From Thalia democratica (Eukaryota): a DNA stretch of 64,000 nucleotides. The first letter of the stretch is position 1. Each line of letters opens with the position of its first letter. Below are positions 18,001 through 27,000 of this stretch, piece after piece. Location: NCBI GenBank assembly GCA_965202585.1, contig OZ241833.1:41912001-41976000 (forward strand), in the 5' to 3' direction. Made by a program: the position numbers.

Positions 18001-21000
18001 TGTTTTAGTTAAGTAGAACTTTTTTTTCTTTTATAAAGAAAATAATCTTAAATGATTGTTGCATATAGTCTCGTTTTTAACTTGTTAAATTTTTGCATAT
18101 TTTTACTATTTAAAAGTATGTTTTTAATATTGTTTGTTTTTTAAATAAATGTATTTACTAACACTTTAAACAAGTTTTTATCACCTATTTTTTATGAACT
18201 ACTAAAAGTTGTTTTTTTTTAATTTAAACTTTTTTTTATGCATTATTTAAAAACTTTTCGTATGTTGTTTTTTTATGCAATTTTATAAGTCAGTCTGTAA
18301 TGTTATTACAGACATTTTGAAATTTAAAAAGTTCAAAAACTTATAAAATCATTTCACTTAAAGTTTTTTTTTCATGAAGGTTTTTAAAACACGTAAATGT
18401 TTTGTTAATGTTGTTATATTTTACTCAGATATCTTTATAGTGTATGTTCATTAAATAAATTCGTAAAACTTAATAATCTAGGTTTTAATAATGACTTTGT
18501 GAGAGTTAAATTTTTTTTTTTAATAGTTTTTAAGAATAATCAGATATAGAATTCATACCAGTGTATTTAATTTTTAAGATGTAAACAGCATTTAAGCTTA
18601 AAGTATTTAAGTTTTTCAATAATTTATAAAAGTATTTTTGTATTTATTATTTAAGTTAGTATCAAAAAGTTAATTATAAATACCGATGGTAGCCTGGTTT
18701 GAATTAATTTTTACCAATTCTGATAAGATAGACTTGTTATGTGTATTAAGATCCGTAAACATAAATTAGAAAAGTGCTTAATTACTTTGAAAAGCATTAA
18801 AAATAATTTAGAACATGTTAGTTTGATTTTAGTTAAATAACAAATTACTTACAATTTTGTTAATTTTGAGTGTAAGTGATTCTGAACGTTTCATTTCAAA
18901 CACTCAAAATTTGTTCAGTAATCTTAGTGATAGTGATAAAATTTTAACTTAAGTATTTATTTTTTTTAAACTTTAAGAAAAGTAGTTCTTGTGCAAAAAA
19001 AATATAAGAAATTTATTAAAATTTCAGCCTTTTAATGCGATTTCACTGTTAAAGATTGTGATTATATTAGGCGTTCAAATTAATTTTTATATTAAAACTT
19101 CAATTTTTGTTAGTTTCCCGTCGACTTAGTTTTGGAGTAAGTATAGGTTATTTTACAAAAAGAAGTATTAATAAATAAAACCAAAAAAAAAAAAACAGTA
19201 AAGGTAATTTGTAGTTTTATATGTGATGGTCTGAACGTTTTAAGTTAAAATAAATTCTTTTGTATTGCTAGAATTTTTAAATTTATATTATTTGATAAAA
19301 CTAAATATTCGTTATTATAATATAAATTTAATTGAACAACTCATAGAAATTATAACTAAAACTTTCAATTCAACATTTTGCCAGTATCTACAGCGAATAT
19401 ATTTATATTTTACTCTGTTTCTAAACTTTAAACAGTTTAAGTTTAAAAGAATGAGTTTTGAAGCATAATTTATTGTGTCACAGGTCTTTAAAAGTTTTTT
19501 GATATATTTAGTTTTTCATTAATTTTGTAGGTTATTATACGTTTATGTGTGTGTGATTGTTTGTGATATTATAGTTTGCATAGTTATTAAGTATAATTTG
19601 ATGTAGGTAAAAAATGTGATAAAAGTTAAAAGAATTTGGAAGGGTATATTACGTAGGTATATGTTTTTGGTGAAAAAAATAATTTCGCTCAGTATGAGCC
19701 AAGGCTAAATTTGGGGGGCTAGTGGGTGGGGGATAGGGACGGCATGGTGTCAGCGACAGCGAGTGGTGAAAAAACAAGTAAATTTTTTAAATTTTATTTT
19801 TTAAAGAACGAAAATGGTGCAACCTCAGGAGAAGTCTGCGACTCCGTGGCGCCACCTAGCGGTTAAAATTTTAAAATTATAATTTTATGCGACCAAATGT
19901 TTATTTACTTCAAGTTAGAACTTTTAAAACCTCAAATTTTAGTATATTTCCTTTAAATAAACCTTTTTAAACACGCTTAATCTAATATACTGCAAAAAAT
20001 AAATGTGAAGTCTCAACAATTATTTCTTTACGTGAAATTTTCTTTTAAAATTTAGATACAAAATAACTTAGACATAAAACGTGACCAAAATGCAAATAAA
20101 TTCTACATTAGAAATTCTATTTCTTTTACTTAGAGCTTTGAAAACTTCGACTTCTAGTAGGTTATTTTAATTTCAGTTAAAAATAAATGGTTTTTATTAT
20201 TAGAAATAAAGCAAAAAACTTCGTTGTAGTTTTTAAAGACACTTTAAAAGTTTTTCTAGATTCAAACGCATTAAACAGTAGCCTTACAAGGAATACATTT
20301 TCTTTTTGCATATGGTATATTTTATGTTGTTTTTATATGCTTAAATGAAGTTATAAATAAATAATGCTTCCAAACTTAAGAACAGTAAACTAATCAGCAG
20401 CACTTGCTGAGTAGTGGGTATTCTTAAAGTAAAGGAAAATTTGTAACAAGTTGATTATAAATTATATAAAACTCTAAAGTTAAAACAACATATTAAACAC
20501 AGCTAAATTAATTCCAAACAATAACAGTTTCTTTTAGTTTCATACAAAGCTTACTTATGAAAGAAAGGTTTAATATATTAAGTATTTAAATGGCATAAGG
20601 TTATTTTGAAGAATTAATGAATTAAAATTGTTATTTTTACTATAAAGTTTAAGTTTTTATTTAAGTTATATATATATATATTTAAGTTTATAAATCCAAA
20701 ATCAGCAACGATGACAAGAACTTAATTGGCTATGTCGGTAGAGCGTTAGACTGGAAACCCAGACGTCGTGGGTTCAAATCTTAGTAGTGCAATTTTTTAT
20801 TTCACGCTGATTTTTTTAACAATAACTATTAAGGGTTGTCACATAATACATATTATCAAACATATAACTTTTGTTTATTTAAAATACAAAAGTACCATTT
20901 TATTAAAGAAGCAAACCTACTAAGATTGACATTTGAACATCGTCGTTGTCTTTTGTTAACAATAAAATATTTTGAAGTTTTGCTAAGCATGTTAGCTTTA

Positions 21001-24000: not shown

Positions 24001-27000
24001 TAAAATGCATCATATAAGTTTAAAAGTTAAAAATTAATTTCGAATTTTTACGAACTAAAATACTTATATATTGTTTTTACAAACATTTTTTCAAATCAAA
24101 TTTAAGATTCACGAAACATTGCTTAGTAAACACTTTTACTTTTAGTCTTGTATTAAAAAGCTGGTCAAGTTTTTTTTTGTTTTATTTTACTTAATGTTAA
24201 CGATAGTATTTAAAAACTTTCAGGAGCTGTTAAAACTAGTTTAATAAAAAATATATTTGTCTAATATAGGTAAATATTTATACAACTTTCATCTACTAAA
24301 CTCGATTTTATTGTGAATTAGTTGTTTCTATATCTTAACAGCTACTTTCTTAAAAAGATGTATTAGAAATTTATCATTGAATGTATTTGTTAACAGTTTC
24401 TATGCGTGTATTGTGCAAACCACGTTGTAATAGTCTAAAATGTAAAAGAAAGTTTTATGTGTTATAGATTTATTTATCAGCTTTTTTACCAGCTAATAGT
24501 TTTCGTTTGTTTAGTCTACTACATTTATTGGATAGATATCTTAAAAGTTTCGTTTTGCCCTTTATCTAAATTAGAAAATATGTATAATATGTTTACAATT
24601 TACTTTTTTATAAGCAATGGTTGCACTAAAACACTTAAAACTACTTTTTTTTTTATTTACGACCCAGCTATAAAATAAAATGCATAAAAAAATATATATT
24701 AATGCTTATTGTTTACAACCAACTCACAAAAGATAGAGATTTTGTACAATAGTTAAGCAAGTATACACTTTCCAACTACTAAGCATTATCTGAGTATAAT
24801 TAAGTTATTATTTTTTCTAAACAGTATTCTTAACAGTTTTTTAATTGTTTTTTGAAAACAAATCAAGATGTATTTTGAAAATAAGTAAAACCTTTTTGTT
24901 CAAAGTAAAATTTTTCATTTCCATAAACTGTGCAATCTATGAATGAAATAAAAATATGTAAAGCAAGTTCATTAAGTAAGTAGTATTTATCATCTACTAA
25001 ACTAAATACACTAACTAAAGTTGTAATAAAGCTACTTAAAAAGCCTCTGTGTATGAGAAAATTTGCAAACAGGGTTTTAAACAGATAACTACTATCAAAT
25101 AAACTAAGTTTAGGTACATTTGCATATGTGCAACCTAACTAAATGTTGTAAATAAAATAAAAAGATTGTTAACTGAACGAAATTTTGAGTTAATATACTC
25201 AAAAAAATGCATTTACTGCAAGGTAGTATAGTCGAGCGGTTGTTGAAAAGCGATCGGGATCCAGTGACCCGAGATCGAGTCAGCTGCACTCCAACTTTTT
25301 TGTAAAATAATTTTACGTTTTATAACTTACTTTTAACAAAACCATTTATACAGTAAAGCTTTGAATCTAAATAAAGTTAATAAACATAGCTGAACAAACC
25401 ATAACATAGCTTTTACCAATAATCAATGTAATATAATTTCAAAAGACTTTGATTAGTTAAAAACAATTTTCATTTTTCACATACTATATTAAATATGTAT
25501 TAAGTTTTTATGTTTAATGTTCATATAAAAAAAATAATTTAGCACTTTAACTTATTATTAGTAACTATATTAACTTATTTGTCTTGAATGAACAACCAAA
25601 GCAAAATCAAACGTTATATTTTAAAAGTGTAAAATATTGTACAGCAGCTTTGTATTGTTACGTCACTATAAACTAATTTATTATAAGAGCGTTTCTGAAA
25701 ACTTCAATTTAGTATCAAAAAATTTTTGAGCAGTTAGTACACTTGTGTTTTGGAAATCATCAATCACAACTTTAGACAATGTATTGAATTCCAAAAAATG
25801 TTATAAAAGTATATTTTCATTTAATTTATAGTTAAGCATAAGCAAACTTTGTTTTATAACAAGTTGTCTTAAATGTTTATAACTACATTTAACTAAGGTT
25901 TGTAATGAAGTTTGTAAAAATAACAAATATTCAAGCAAACTCCCTTTGTAATATAATTTAAACTTTTTGTAGTTTTCTGATACTTAATTGTGGAGTGAGA
26001 CATATTTTGTTTAACTGGAACTTTTTATTTATAATGGTTAGCCTTTTTTTTAACTTATCTTAAATAAATACAAATTCAAATTACTGGTTTAAACAAAGTT
26101 ATTGAAACTTCATTACAAACCTTAGTTAAATGAAGTTATAAACATTTAAGACAACTTGTTATAAAACAAAATTTTCTAATGCTTAACTAAATAAAAAAAC
26201 ACTCCAATAACATTTTTGGAATTCAGTTCATTGTATAAAGTTGTAATTGATATAATTTTTAAAATACAAGTGTACTAACTGCTCAAAAATTTTTTGATAC
26301 TAAATTGAAGTTTTCAGAAACGCTCTTAAAATAAGTTACTTTATAGTGACGTAACAATACAAAGCTGCTGTACAATATTTTACACTTTTGAAAGAAAAAG
26401 TTTGATTTTGCTTTGGTTTTTCATTCAAGACAAATAAATTAATATAATTACTAATAATAAGTTAAAGTGCTAAATTATTTTATAAGAACATTAAATATAA
26501 AAACTTAGTACATATTTAATATAGTATGGGGAAAATGACAATTATTTTTAACTAACAAAAGTCTTTTGAAATTATATTACATTGATTATTGTTAAAAGTT
26601 TTTTAAAGTAGTATTTTCAGCTATGTTTATCAACTTTCTTTAGATTCAAAGCTTTACTGTATAAGACATTTTGTTAAAAGTAAGTTTTAAAACGTAAAAT
26701 TATTTTACAAAAGAGTAGGAGTGCAGCTGACTCGATCTCGGGTCGCTGGATCCCGATCACTTTACAACAACCGTTCGACTATACTACCTTGCGCTCAAAA
26801 GCATATTTTTGAGTATATCAAGTCAAAATTTCTTTTAGTAAACAATCTTTTTATTTTATTTACAATATTTAGTTAGGTTGCATATATGCAAATGTACCTA
26901 AACTTAGTTTATTTGATAGTATTTATCTGTTTAAAACCCTGTTTGCAAATTTTCTGATACTCAGAAGCTTTTTAAGTAGCTTTATTACAACTTTAGTTAG

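What the first reader, a model, noticed from the sequence alone, without database searches (positions are those of the whole stretch)
20720..26788. Cluster of tRNA-like units from different parent tRNAs, each ending in oligo-T
Within 6 kb lie Lys-like, Arg-like, Leu-like and one unassigned unit. Each keeps recognisable A/B boxes and a T-run rather than a SINE poly-A tail, but cloverleafs are broken. This looks like a decayed or repurposed tRNA gene cluster now being re-amplified by satellite expansion, inversion and segmental duplication (6 units in unit 1, 11 in unit 2). It may produce novel Pol III RNAs. Parent assignments are from memory.
Basis: partly seen in the sequence, partly recalled or inferred. 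Interest (0 to 1): 0.65.

Follow-up and report, generated by a model that had tools for sequence, protein, structure and literature searches.

The report
Broken tRNA-like relics, locally amplified
Four kinds of short tRNA-like gene relics lie just downstream of an immune-adapter gene in an AT-rich animal genome and have been copied along with local duplications; this looks ordinary, although whether they are still transcribed could not be tested.

Summary
The units are real and not chance. There are four unit types (U1 20720-20798, U2 21088-21163, U3 21888-21973, U4 25222-25301). Three of them carry a B-box match with at most one mismatch, and all four have a T-run starting 11-14 nt after the B box. 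That combination occurs 5 times in window 1-30000, against a mean of 0.17 in simulated sequence. None is a tRNA: ARAGORN and Rfam at gathering score find nothing, only U1 gets a weak tRNA score (14.7 bits, cutoff 29), acceptor stems pair at chance level, and no fold beats shuffles. The cluster lies about 3.5 kb downstream of the last exon of a SEFIR/CIKS-like adapter gene. It sits inside a 25-26 kb tandem macro-repeat of at least 2.3 copies that also holds a 421-bp array (2 vs 7 copies) and a 3.5-kb palindrome. The units are no better conserved than their flanks. Best reading: relics of a tRNA gene cluster, each with its own Pol III terminator, amplified passively. Promoter and terminator layout is better kept than the fold, so residual Pol III or TFIIIC activity stays open. 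Genome-wide copy number could not be checked.

The parts
20720..20798 (+). U1, tRNA-like unit (copy in macro-repeat A). B box 20771-20781 has 1 mismatch; T6 run at 20793-20798.
   Evidence: Rfam tRNA 14.7 bits, E 4.2 in 501 nt; phage tRNA hits; T-stem 4/5, acceptor 1/7, T8 to G52 = 44 nt.
44985..45063 (+). U1, copy in macro-repeat B; identical over the 85 nt matched by blastn.
21088..21163 (+). U2, tRNA-like unit (A). Exact B box at 21136-21146, a perfect 5-bp stem with a 7-nt loop upstream, and a T4 run 13 nt after the B box. The 5' boundary is uncertain.
   Evidence: No Rfam or phage tRNA hit.
45371..45446 (+). U2, copy in macro-repeat B (identical).
21888..21973 (+). U3, tRNA-like unit in the first 421-bp monomer (A). 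Exact B box at 21947-21957; T4 run 12 nt after it, then a T8 run.
   Evidence: No Rfam hit.
22309..22394 (+). U3, in the second 421-bp monomer (A).
46171..48782 (+). Seven U3 copies in macro-repeat B, starting at 46171, 46592, 47013, 47434, 47855, 48276 and 48697, each 86 nt.
25222..25301 (+). U4, tRNA-like unit in the left palindrome arm (A). A-box pattern match at 25229-25239, weak B box at 25272-25282 (6 of 9), T6 run at 25296-25301.
   Evidence: No tRNA hit.
26709..26788 (-). U4, inverted copy in the right palindrome arm (A); 6 differences in 85 nt.
51584..51663 (+). U4, left-arm copy in macro-repeat B.
53082..53161 (-). U4, right-arm copy in macro-repeat B.
21639..22471 (+). 421-bp tandem array, 2.0 copies (A); each monomer holds one U3.
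45922..48859 (+). 421-bp tandem array, 7.0 copies (B). The first monomer matches the first one in A; the other six match the second one in A.
22434..29774 (.). Palindrome in A: arms 22434-25913 and 26105-29774, about 10% diverged, with a 191-nt spacer.
48822..56162 (.). The same palindrome in B: arms 48822-52275 and 52467-56162.
4992..29970 (+). Macro-repeat copy A (24,979 bp).
29971..56358 (+). Macro-repeat copy B (26,388 bp).
56359..64000 (+). Macro-repeat copy C, cut off by the end of the window.
17033..17176 (+). Last coding exon of the SEFIR/CIKS-like gene, about 3.5 kb upstream of U1; duplicated at 41522-41665.

Best explanation
These are relics of a small head-to-tail cluster of nuclear tRNA genes (tDNAs) in the intergenic DNA downstream of a SEFIR/CIKS-like gene of an unidentified AT-rich animal. 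Each unit still has the layout of a tRNA gene: an internal B box, tRNA-sized spacing and its own oligo-T Pol III terminator. None can fold as a tRNA any more. The region was then rearranged at the DNA level. A 3.5-kb inverted duplication copied U4, a 421-bp tandem duplication copied U3, and a 25-26 kb tandem duplication copied the whole cluster. Finally, one 421-bp monomer type expanded from 1 to 6 copies in macro-copy B. The units ride along passively. What is shown: the anatomy, the copy structure and the lack of a tRNA fold. What is inferred: the origin from true tRNA genes, the order of events and the present inertness.
For: B boxes are far above chance (11 matches vs 0.12 expected). The T-run sits at the tRNA-terminator distance in all four types, and the combination is far above simulation. 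U1 has canonical internal spacing, with T8 to G52 = 44 nt. It aligns end to end with the Rfam tRNA model at 14.7 bits and hits annotated tRNAs in 15 of 15 listed phage matches. U2 has a perfect 5-bp stem with a 7-nt loop at the anticodon-arm position; only 1.3% of window positions show such a hairpin. The four different types lie in the same orientation within 4.6 kb. That matches heterogeneous tDNA clusters, which are mostly parallel (PMC2888827, passages read). There is no tail, no shared body and no target-site duplication, and no further copies in the rest of the window. Nothing indicates a working tRNA. The units are no more conserved than their flanks. Between macro-copies they show 0-1 differences, but 49-87% of equal-sized windows do as well. 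Between palindrome arms they show 5-6 differences against a mean of 8. U3 has 1 variable column of 81 against 29 of 347 elsewhere; counted by eye in the alignment as events this is about 1 vs 14, which is not significant.
Against: Preservation is uneven. B-box positions are kept at 8/9, 9/9, 9/9 and 6/9, while acceptor stems pair at chance level (1, 3, 3, 2 of 7). The units also remain GC islands of 41-57% in 25% GC DNA. Uniform neutral decay of canonical tRNA genes does not predict this. It fits selection on the promoter, or parents that had already lost the cloverleaf. Finding units by their B boxes explains part of the pattern, but probably not all of it. U2, U3 and U4 have no tool-level similarity to any tRNA. 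U3 carries about 8 extra nt between the A-box region and the B box. The paralogue comparisons span only 1-10% divergence and have little power to detect constraint.
Confidence: 0.55

Rival explanations
1. The units belong to this locus but are still live type-2 Pol III elements. They are either genes for short tRNA-derived RNAs or TFIIIC-binding sites. They are kept for promoter function although the tRNA fold is lost, and the 421-bp array is a young expanding gene array.
For: U2 and U3 have exact B boxes and U1 has one mismatch. Terminators lie at the right distance. Promoter and terminator are kept far better than the stems. The units remain GC islands comparable to the exons. The U3 array differs, 2 vs 7 copies, between neighbouring macro-copies. 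Precedents, seen as abstracts only: the rodent 4.5SI gene derives from tRNA and has A and B boxes (PMC10137851), and ETC sites bind TFIIIC without Pol III and act as chromatin boundaries (PMC3395662).
Against: There is no excess conservation over flanks. The A boxes are weak, with no enrichment of the pattern. U4's B box keeps only 6 of 9 positions. No fold is more stable than shuffles, with z-scores from -0.38 to +0.68. No known RNA family matches.
Confidence: 0.2
2. The units are copies, or head fragments, of dispersed tRNA-derived repeat families (SINE-like). They happen to lie together and were then duplicated locally.
For: Good internal promoter motifs with a lost cloverleaf, especially a lost acceptor stem, are typical of SINE heads (established knowledge; the motif and pairing data are). 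Some genomes carry thousands of tRNA pseudogenes and tRNA-derived repeats (PMC2888827, abstract and passages).
Against: The T-run lies where a tRNA gene ends, so Pol III would stop before any SINE body. There is no shared downstream body, no A-rich or simple-repeat tail, and no flanking direct repeat beyond chance: the best is 0-6 nt, equalled in 413-500 of 500 controls. Four different types lie in one orientation within 4.6 kb. No other copy, even a diverged one, occurs in the roughly 30 kb of non-redundant window. An exact 26-mer of U3 found nothing in genome contigs, but that collection holds only bacteria and archaea, so this is very weak evidence.
Confidence: 0.18
3. The units are chance motif matches in AT-rich DNA.
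For: T4 runs are common: 41-44% of positions have one within 25 nt. The A-box pattern is not enriched. U2, U3 and U4 give no tRNA hit.
Against: Exact B boxes number 11 against 0.12 expected. B box plus T-run at 11-14 nt occurs 5 times against a simulated mean of 0.17, and 0 of 300 simulations reached 4. U1 hits tRNAs only.
Confidence: 0.02

Closest known systems
Clusters of tRNA genes and pseudogenes (tDNA clusters) in eukaryotic genomes (PMC2888827, abstract and passages read)
   Same: Several tDNA-like units of different types lie less than 1 kb apart (U1-U2 368 nt, U2-U3 800 nt) in parallel orientation. Turnover resembles that of unconstrained sequence, and the cluster sits in locally duplicated DNA.
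   Different: That survey counted loci that tRNAscan-SE reports. The detectors I ran, ARAGORN and the Rfam tRNA model (tRNAscan-SE itself was not available), leave these units below threshold, so they are more degenerate than typical annotated pseudogenes. The acceptor stems are completely lost while the B boxes are kept.
Tandemly repeated tRNA gene units, such as the Arabidopsis tRNA-Cys cluster in 0.4-kb repeating units that varies between ecotypes (PMC10701932, start of abstract in the search listing), and the Entamoeba arrays mentioned in PMC2888827
   Same: One tRNA-type unit sits in each roughly 0.4-kb repeat, and copy number is unstable (2 vs 7 copies).
   Different: Those arrays hold intact tRNA genes. 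U3 is not a tRNA.
tRNA-derived SINEs
   Same: An internal type-2 promoter motif is kept without a working cloverleaf.
   Different: There is no tRNA-unrelated body, no tail, no target-site duplication and no other copies in the window, and a terminator follows the tRNA-sized part directly. Genome-wide abundance was not testable.
Rodent 4.5SI and 4.5SH small-RNA genes (PMC10137851 and PMC7279448, abstracts only). Their tandem-array organisation is recalled, not seen in a call.
   Same: Short Pol III units derived from tRNA or 7SL, with A and B boxes and a T-run; by recall they are multiplied in tandem units.
   Different: Those RNAs are known to be expressed. Here there is no expression evidence, no stable fold and no conservation signal.
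Extra-TFIIIC (ETC) sites and tDNA boundary elements (PMC3395662, abstract only)
   Same: B-box-bearing DNA that need not produce a tRNA.
   Different: ETC sites are defined by TFIIIC occupancy, which could not be tested here.

Membership tests
Functional nuclear tRNA gene | Detected by tRNA finders, or at or above the Rfam RF00005 gathering score (29 bits) | tested here: not met
   ARAGORN found 0 genes in the window and none at 95% of its threshold. Rfam at gathering score gave 0 hits. U1 scored 14.7 bits; U2, U3 and U4 gave no hit at E up to 10.
Functional nuclear tRNA gene | Cloverleaf with a 7-bp acceptor stem | tested here: not met
   Acceptor pairs are 1, 3, 3 and 2 of 7 against a chance mean of 2.87. 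T-stems pair 4, 3, 3 and 1 of 5. Fold z-scores are near 0.
tRNA pseudogene / tDNA relic | Sequence similarity to tRNAs beyond the promoter motifs | tested here: inconclusive
   Met for U1. Not found for U2, U3 and U4 against Rfam or bacterial-type phage tRNAs. No eukaryotic tRNA set was available.
tRNA pseudogene / tDNA relic | tRNA-gene layout: tRNA-sized spacing and a terminator just after position 73 | tested here: met
   The T-run starts 11-14 nt after the B box in all four types. T8 to G52 is 44 nt in U1, 43 in U4 and 52 in U3.
Type-2 Pol III transcription unit | B box matching the consensus (consensus recalled) | tested here: met
   Exact in U2 and U3, one mismatch in U1. U4 keeps only 6 of 9 positions.
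Type-2 Pol III transcription unit | A box matching the consensus, 30-60 nt upstream of the B box | tested here: inconclusive
   Only U4 copies match the degenerate pattern, and the pattern is not enriched in the window (9 vs 4.7 expected). U1, U2 and U3 are approximate by eye.
Type-2 Pol III transcription unit | Pol III/TFIIIC occupancy and a transcript | not testable with these tools
   No expression or ChIP data were available.
tRNA-derived SINE | tRNA-unrelated body and an A-rich or simple-repeat tail after the head | tested here: not met
   The oligo-T run follows the tRNA-sized part directly, and there is no shared downstream similarity beyond AT-rich noise.
tRNA-derived SINE | Flanking target-site duplications | tested here: not met
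   The best flanking direct repeats are 0-6 nt, equalled in 413-500 of 500 random controls. Old duplications could have decayed.
tRNA-derived SINE | Many dispersed copies in the genome | not testable with these tools
   Only the window could be searched, and it holds no extra copies. Genome contigs holds only bacteria and archaea.
Tandem tDNA array | Head-to-tail repeat units each holding one unit | tested here: met
   421-bp unit, 2.0 and 7.0 copies, with one U3 in each.

The most novel reading that the evidence does not exclude
The units are not dead. They are tRNA-derived type-2 Pol III elements kept for promoter and terminator function after the tRNA fold was abandoned. They would be either small-RNA genes or TFIIIC-binding boundary sites. 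The 421-bp U3 array, 2 copies in one macro-copy and 7 in the next, would then be a newborn Pol III gene satellite caught while expanding, an invertebrate counterpart of the rodent 4.5S RNA gene arrays.
Probability: 0.12. Interest if true: 0.5.

Novelty: new member of a known kind. Interest (0 to 1): 0.2.

Why it matters
As read here, it matters little. tRNA genes and pseudogenes are known to cluster, to turn over quickly and to be multiplied by local duplication, and this locus is one more example. It is a clean case of layered rearrangement in which the order of events can be read: inversion, then short tandem array, then a 25-kb tandem duplication, then array expansion. One point is worth a cheap follow-up. 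The promoter and terminator layout is kept much better than the RNA fold. If the units bind TFIIIC or are transcribed, the locus would show how tRNA relics become new Pol III elements or boundary sites. For annotation, tRNA finders are right to ignore these units.

Tried and rejected
- **Relaxed ARAGORN thresholds.** At 85% of threshold only U3 is forced into a 'Ser' model. At 80% there are 57 hits, which is noise. Rejected as evidence.
- **Rfam on short stretches.** Only the weak U1 tRNA hit is relevant; all other matches are at chance level.
- **Typing the parent tRNAs with annotated phage tRNAs.** This worked only for U1, whose hits are Thr, Asn, Pro and Ile, not Lys. Bacterial-type tRNAs cannot settle a eukaryotic parent. 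U2, U3 and U4 gave only chance hits (E 2-9) on protein genes or unannotated records.
- **Constraint tests using paralogous copies.** No signal, and low power.
- **Shared SINE body and target-site duplications.** None found.
- **Extra diverged copies in the window.** None found.
- **Exact 26-mer scan of genome contigs.** 0 hits. This collection holds only prokaryotes, so the result says almost nothing.
- **Identifying the organism.** The SEFIR exon finds one unnamed JGI protein cluster at 82-92% identity. The Atlas gives only SEFIR clusters, commonest in chordates and molluscs. The organism stays unidentified, and I did not try to trace the unnamed records.
- **Vault-RNA-like reading of U3 and U4.** I considered this from recall because of the A/B boxes and the possible pairing of the two ends seen in the folds. 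I dropped it because there is no Rfam hit at E up to 10 and the folds are no better than shuffles.
- **Pfam on 59 of the 141 stop-to-stop frames of at least 55 aa.** Only the SEFIR exon is real. The other two weak hits lie below their cutoffs.
- **One simulation script timed out** and was rerun in a faster form.

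
Full report
**What the window is**

The window has 25% G+C throughout and no N. Under the standard code no stop-to-stop frame exceeds 124 aa. I do not take it for human.

The longest frame (1596-1958) is a real exon. It matches the SEFIR domain weakly in Pfam. It also matches an unnamed 354-aa SEFIR protein, P0001, at 82% identity. Running P0001 by tblastn against the window places further exons at 11-124, 1737-1934, 2096-2296 and 17033-17176, the last at 92% identity and duplicated at 41522-41665.

I handled the exons one by one and did not build or search a joined spliced model. 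The Atlas puts P0001 next to CIKS/Act1-like adapter clusters, commonest in chordates and molluscs. So this is an animal genome with AT-rich non-coding DNA and exons of 53-64% G+C. The species stayed unidentified.

**Large-scale structure**

Self-comparison shows a tandem macro-repeat: copy A 4992-29970, copy B 29971-56358, and copy C from 56359 to the end of the window. It starts inside the last intron of the SEFIR-like gene. It contains the last exon and about 13 kb of downstream DNA.

A-B identity changes along the unit: 95%, 88%, 92%, 97% and 98%. The tRNA-like cluster lies in the most similar part.

Each macro-copy holds two further structures.
- A 421-bp tandem array: 2.0 copies in A and 7.0 in B.
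- A palindrome with 3.5-kb arms about 10% diverged.

**The observation**

Four unit types lie on the + strand between 20720 and 25301, and U4 has an inverted copy at 26709-26788.

| Evidence | Result |
|---|---|
| Exact match to the recalled B-box consensus | 11 in the window vs 0.12 expected; all in U2 and U3 copies |
| U1 B box | 1 mismatch |
| U4 B box | 6 of 9 specified positions kept |
| Start of a T run of at least 4 after the B box | 11-14 nt in every type |
| Chance of a T-run at that distance, per site | 0.077-0.087 |
| Chance of a T4 run anywhere within 25 nt | 0.41-0.44 |
| B box (at most 1 mismatch) plus T-run at 11-14 nt, window 1-30000 | 5 observed; simulated mean 0.17; 1 of 300 reached 3, 0 of 300 reached 4 |

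A T-run alone is therefore unremarkable here; its fixed position is what counts. One of the five composite sites is not in the cluster (12900-12910, minus strand) and is listed under things noticed in passing.

The A boxes are weaker than claimed. Only U4 copies match the degenerate pattern, and that pattern is not enriched (9 matches vs 4.7 expected; 6 of 100 shuffles reach 9).

**They are not tRNAs**

- ARAGORN finds nothing in the window, and nothing at 95% of its threshold.
- Rfam at gathering score finds nothing in the window.
- On short stretches, only U1 aligns to the tRNA model, at 14.7 bits against a cutoff of 29. U2, U3 and U4 get no tRNA hit at E up to 10.

I numbered positions from the B box and counted pairs.

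| Unit | Acceptor pairs (of 7) | T-stem pairs (of 5) | T8 to G52 (nt) |
|---|---|---|---|
| U1 | 1 | 4 | 44 (canonical) |
| U2 | 3 | 3 | no A-box T found |
| U3 | 3 | 3 | 52 (about 8 extra) |
| U4 | 2 | 1 | 43 |

The chance mean for acceptor pairs in this window is 2.87. U2 keeps a perfect 5-bp stem with a 7-nt loop where the anticodon arm should be, but its variable region is 8 nt long.

No unit folds better than its shuffles; z-scores run from -0.38 to +0.68. The anticodon-like triplets read in the best registers are, from my knowledge of eukaryotic decoding rules, types that eukaryotic tRNA sets avoid. The registers are uncertain.

**Parent assignments**

Only U1 resembles tRNAs by a tool. 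All 15 listed phage hits, of 22 records, lie on annotated tRNAs: Thr 11, Pro 2, Asn 1, Ile 1. The best has E 0.01 and 76% identity over 58 nt.

U2, U3 and U4 gave only chance-level hits (E 2-9) on protein genes or unannotated records. From recall, U1 does look like metazoan tRNA-Lys in its D-loop and variable/T-arm region. U3 has an Arg-like 5' part, and U4 has a class II (Ser/Leu)-like A-box region. No eukaryotic tRNA set was available, so these labels remain recollections.

The four types are not close copies of each other: mean column identity is 53%, inflated by the two U4 rows.

**Relic genes or SINE pieces?**

The anatomy argues for DNA-level tRNA-gene relics.
- The tRNA-sized part ends in its own terminator, which would stop Pol III before any SINE body.
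- There is no shared downstream sequence.
- There is no tail.
- No flanking direct repeat exceeds chance.
- A sensitive nhmmer search finds no other copy in the roughly 30 kb of non-redundant window.
- The four types are co-oriented and closely spaced (368 and 800 nt), as in known heterogeneous tDNA clusters (PMC2888827, passages read).

**Is anything selected?**

| Comparison | Unit | Differences | Equal-sized windows doing as well |
|---|---|---|---|
| Macro-copy A vs B | U1 | 0 | 52% |
| Macro-copy A vs B | U2 | 0 | 49% |
| Macro-copy A vs B | U4 (+) | 0 | 62% |
| Macro-copy A vs B | U4 (-) | 1 | 87% |
| Palindrome arms, copy A | U4 | 5 (window mean 8.0) | 41% |
| Palindrome arms, copy B | U4 | 6 (window mean 7.8) | 53% |

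Among the nine 421-bp monomers, U3 has 1 variable column of 81 against 29 of 347 elsewhere. Many of those columns are gap columns; counted by eye in the alignment as events the ratio is about 1 to 14, which is not significant. So there is no sign of constraint, but the test is weak at 1-10% divergence.

One result cuts the other way. B-box positions are kept in 32 of 36 cases, while acceptor pairing is at chance level. The units also stay at 41-57% G+C in 25% G+C DNA.

Uniform neutral decay of canonical tRNA genes does not predict that. Part of it is ascertainment, because units are recognised by their B boxes. The rest leaves room for promoter selection, or for parents that had already lost the cloverleaf.

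**Order of events (inferred)**

1. U4's odd features are shared by both palindrome arms, so they predate the inversion (about 10% divergence).
2. The two monomer types of the 421-bp array are about 6% apart, and both are present in A and B.
3. The macro-duplication followed; divergence in this part is 1-3%.
4. Last, the second monomer type expanded from 1 to 6 copies in B, with neighbouring monomers 98-99% identical.

**Verdict**

This is a real but ordinary feature. It is a degenerate tRNA-gene cluster carried along by local duplications, with an open and cheaply testable question of whether its well-kept B boxes and terminators still work.

Comparable known cases:
- tDNA clusters (PMC2888827).
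- 0.4-kb tandem tRNA-Cys units in Arabidopsis (PMC10701932, start of abstract only).
- tRNA-derived Pol III genes such as 4.5SI (PMC10137851, abstract only).
- ETC sites (PMC3395662, abstract only).

Paper supplements were closed. The per-genome tables of PMC2888827 may bear on how common such clusters are.

Noticed in passing
window 11-124, 1737-1934, 2096-2296, 17033-17176 (+): Exons of a SEFIR-domain, CIKS/Act1-like adapter gene, 49-92% identical to the unnamed JGI protein P0001 (weakest at 11-124). The last intron is about 14.7 kb long and contains the left boundary of the macro-repeat.
   Followed up: partly
window 41522-41665 (+): A second copy of the gene's last coding exon, carried by macro-copy B. 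It has the same 48-aa translation in the tblastn alignment. It could serve as an alternative 3' exon or be a dead duplicate.
   Followed up: no
window 2335-2796 (+): A tandem array with periods of about 70-77 and 143 nt begins near the end of exon 3. It repeats the last nine codons of that exon three more times, at 2335-2397, 2522-2548 and 2742-2768, so the exon-intron junction itself is tandemly duplicated.
   Followed up: partly
window-wide; exons at 3-77, 1823-1897, 2159-2233, 17032-17106: Coding exons have 53-64% G+C inside 25% G+C non-coding DNA, an unusually sharp contrast that may help to identify the taxon.
   Followed up: no
window 7394-8233, copy A only: An element of about 840 bp with 29-nt terminal inverted repeats (97% complementary). 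It is flanked by direct repeats of about 90 nt (7312-7394 and 8260-8350) and is absent from copies B and C. It looks like a MITE or DNA-transposon insertion, or a local duplication.
   Followed up: partly
window 12900-12910 (-), also 37331-37341 (-): A B-box match with one mismatch, followed by a T5 run 11 nt downstream on the minus strand. It may be a fifth, more decayed relic outside the cluster. Rfam gives no tRNA hit there.
   Followed up: partly
window 6125-6161 (+), also 31122 and 57509: An A-box pattern match followed about 15 nt later by a weak B-box-like motif, present in all three macro-copies. It is too short for a tRNA and its origin is unclear.
   Followed up: no
window 19686-19866 (+), also about 43967-44041: Two G+C-rich islands (up to 60% G+C) between the last exon and U1, including a G-run-rich stretch. 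They have no ORF and no Rfam match, and their nature is unknown.
   Followed up: no
window 4389-4766: A 24-bp minisatellite of 15.8 copies, just upstream of the macro-repeat boundary at 4992.
   Followed up: no
window 12560-12960: Many short repeats of a motif like GTGAACTCA / GATGAACTCA scattered over about 400 nt.
   Followed up: no
macro-copies A, B and C: Divergence between macro-copies is very uneven: 88% in the intron part and 97-98% around the tRNA-like cluster and palindrome. This suggests gene conversion or unequal exchange that homogenises the 3' part.
   Followed up: partly
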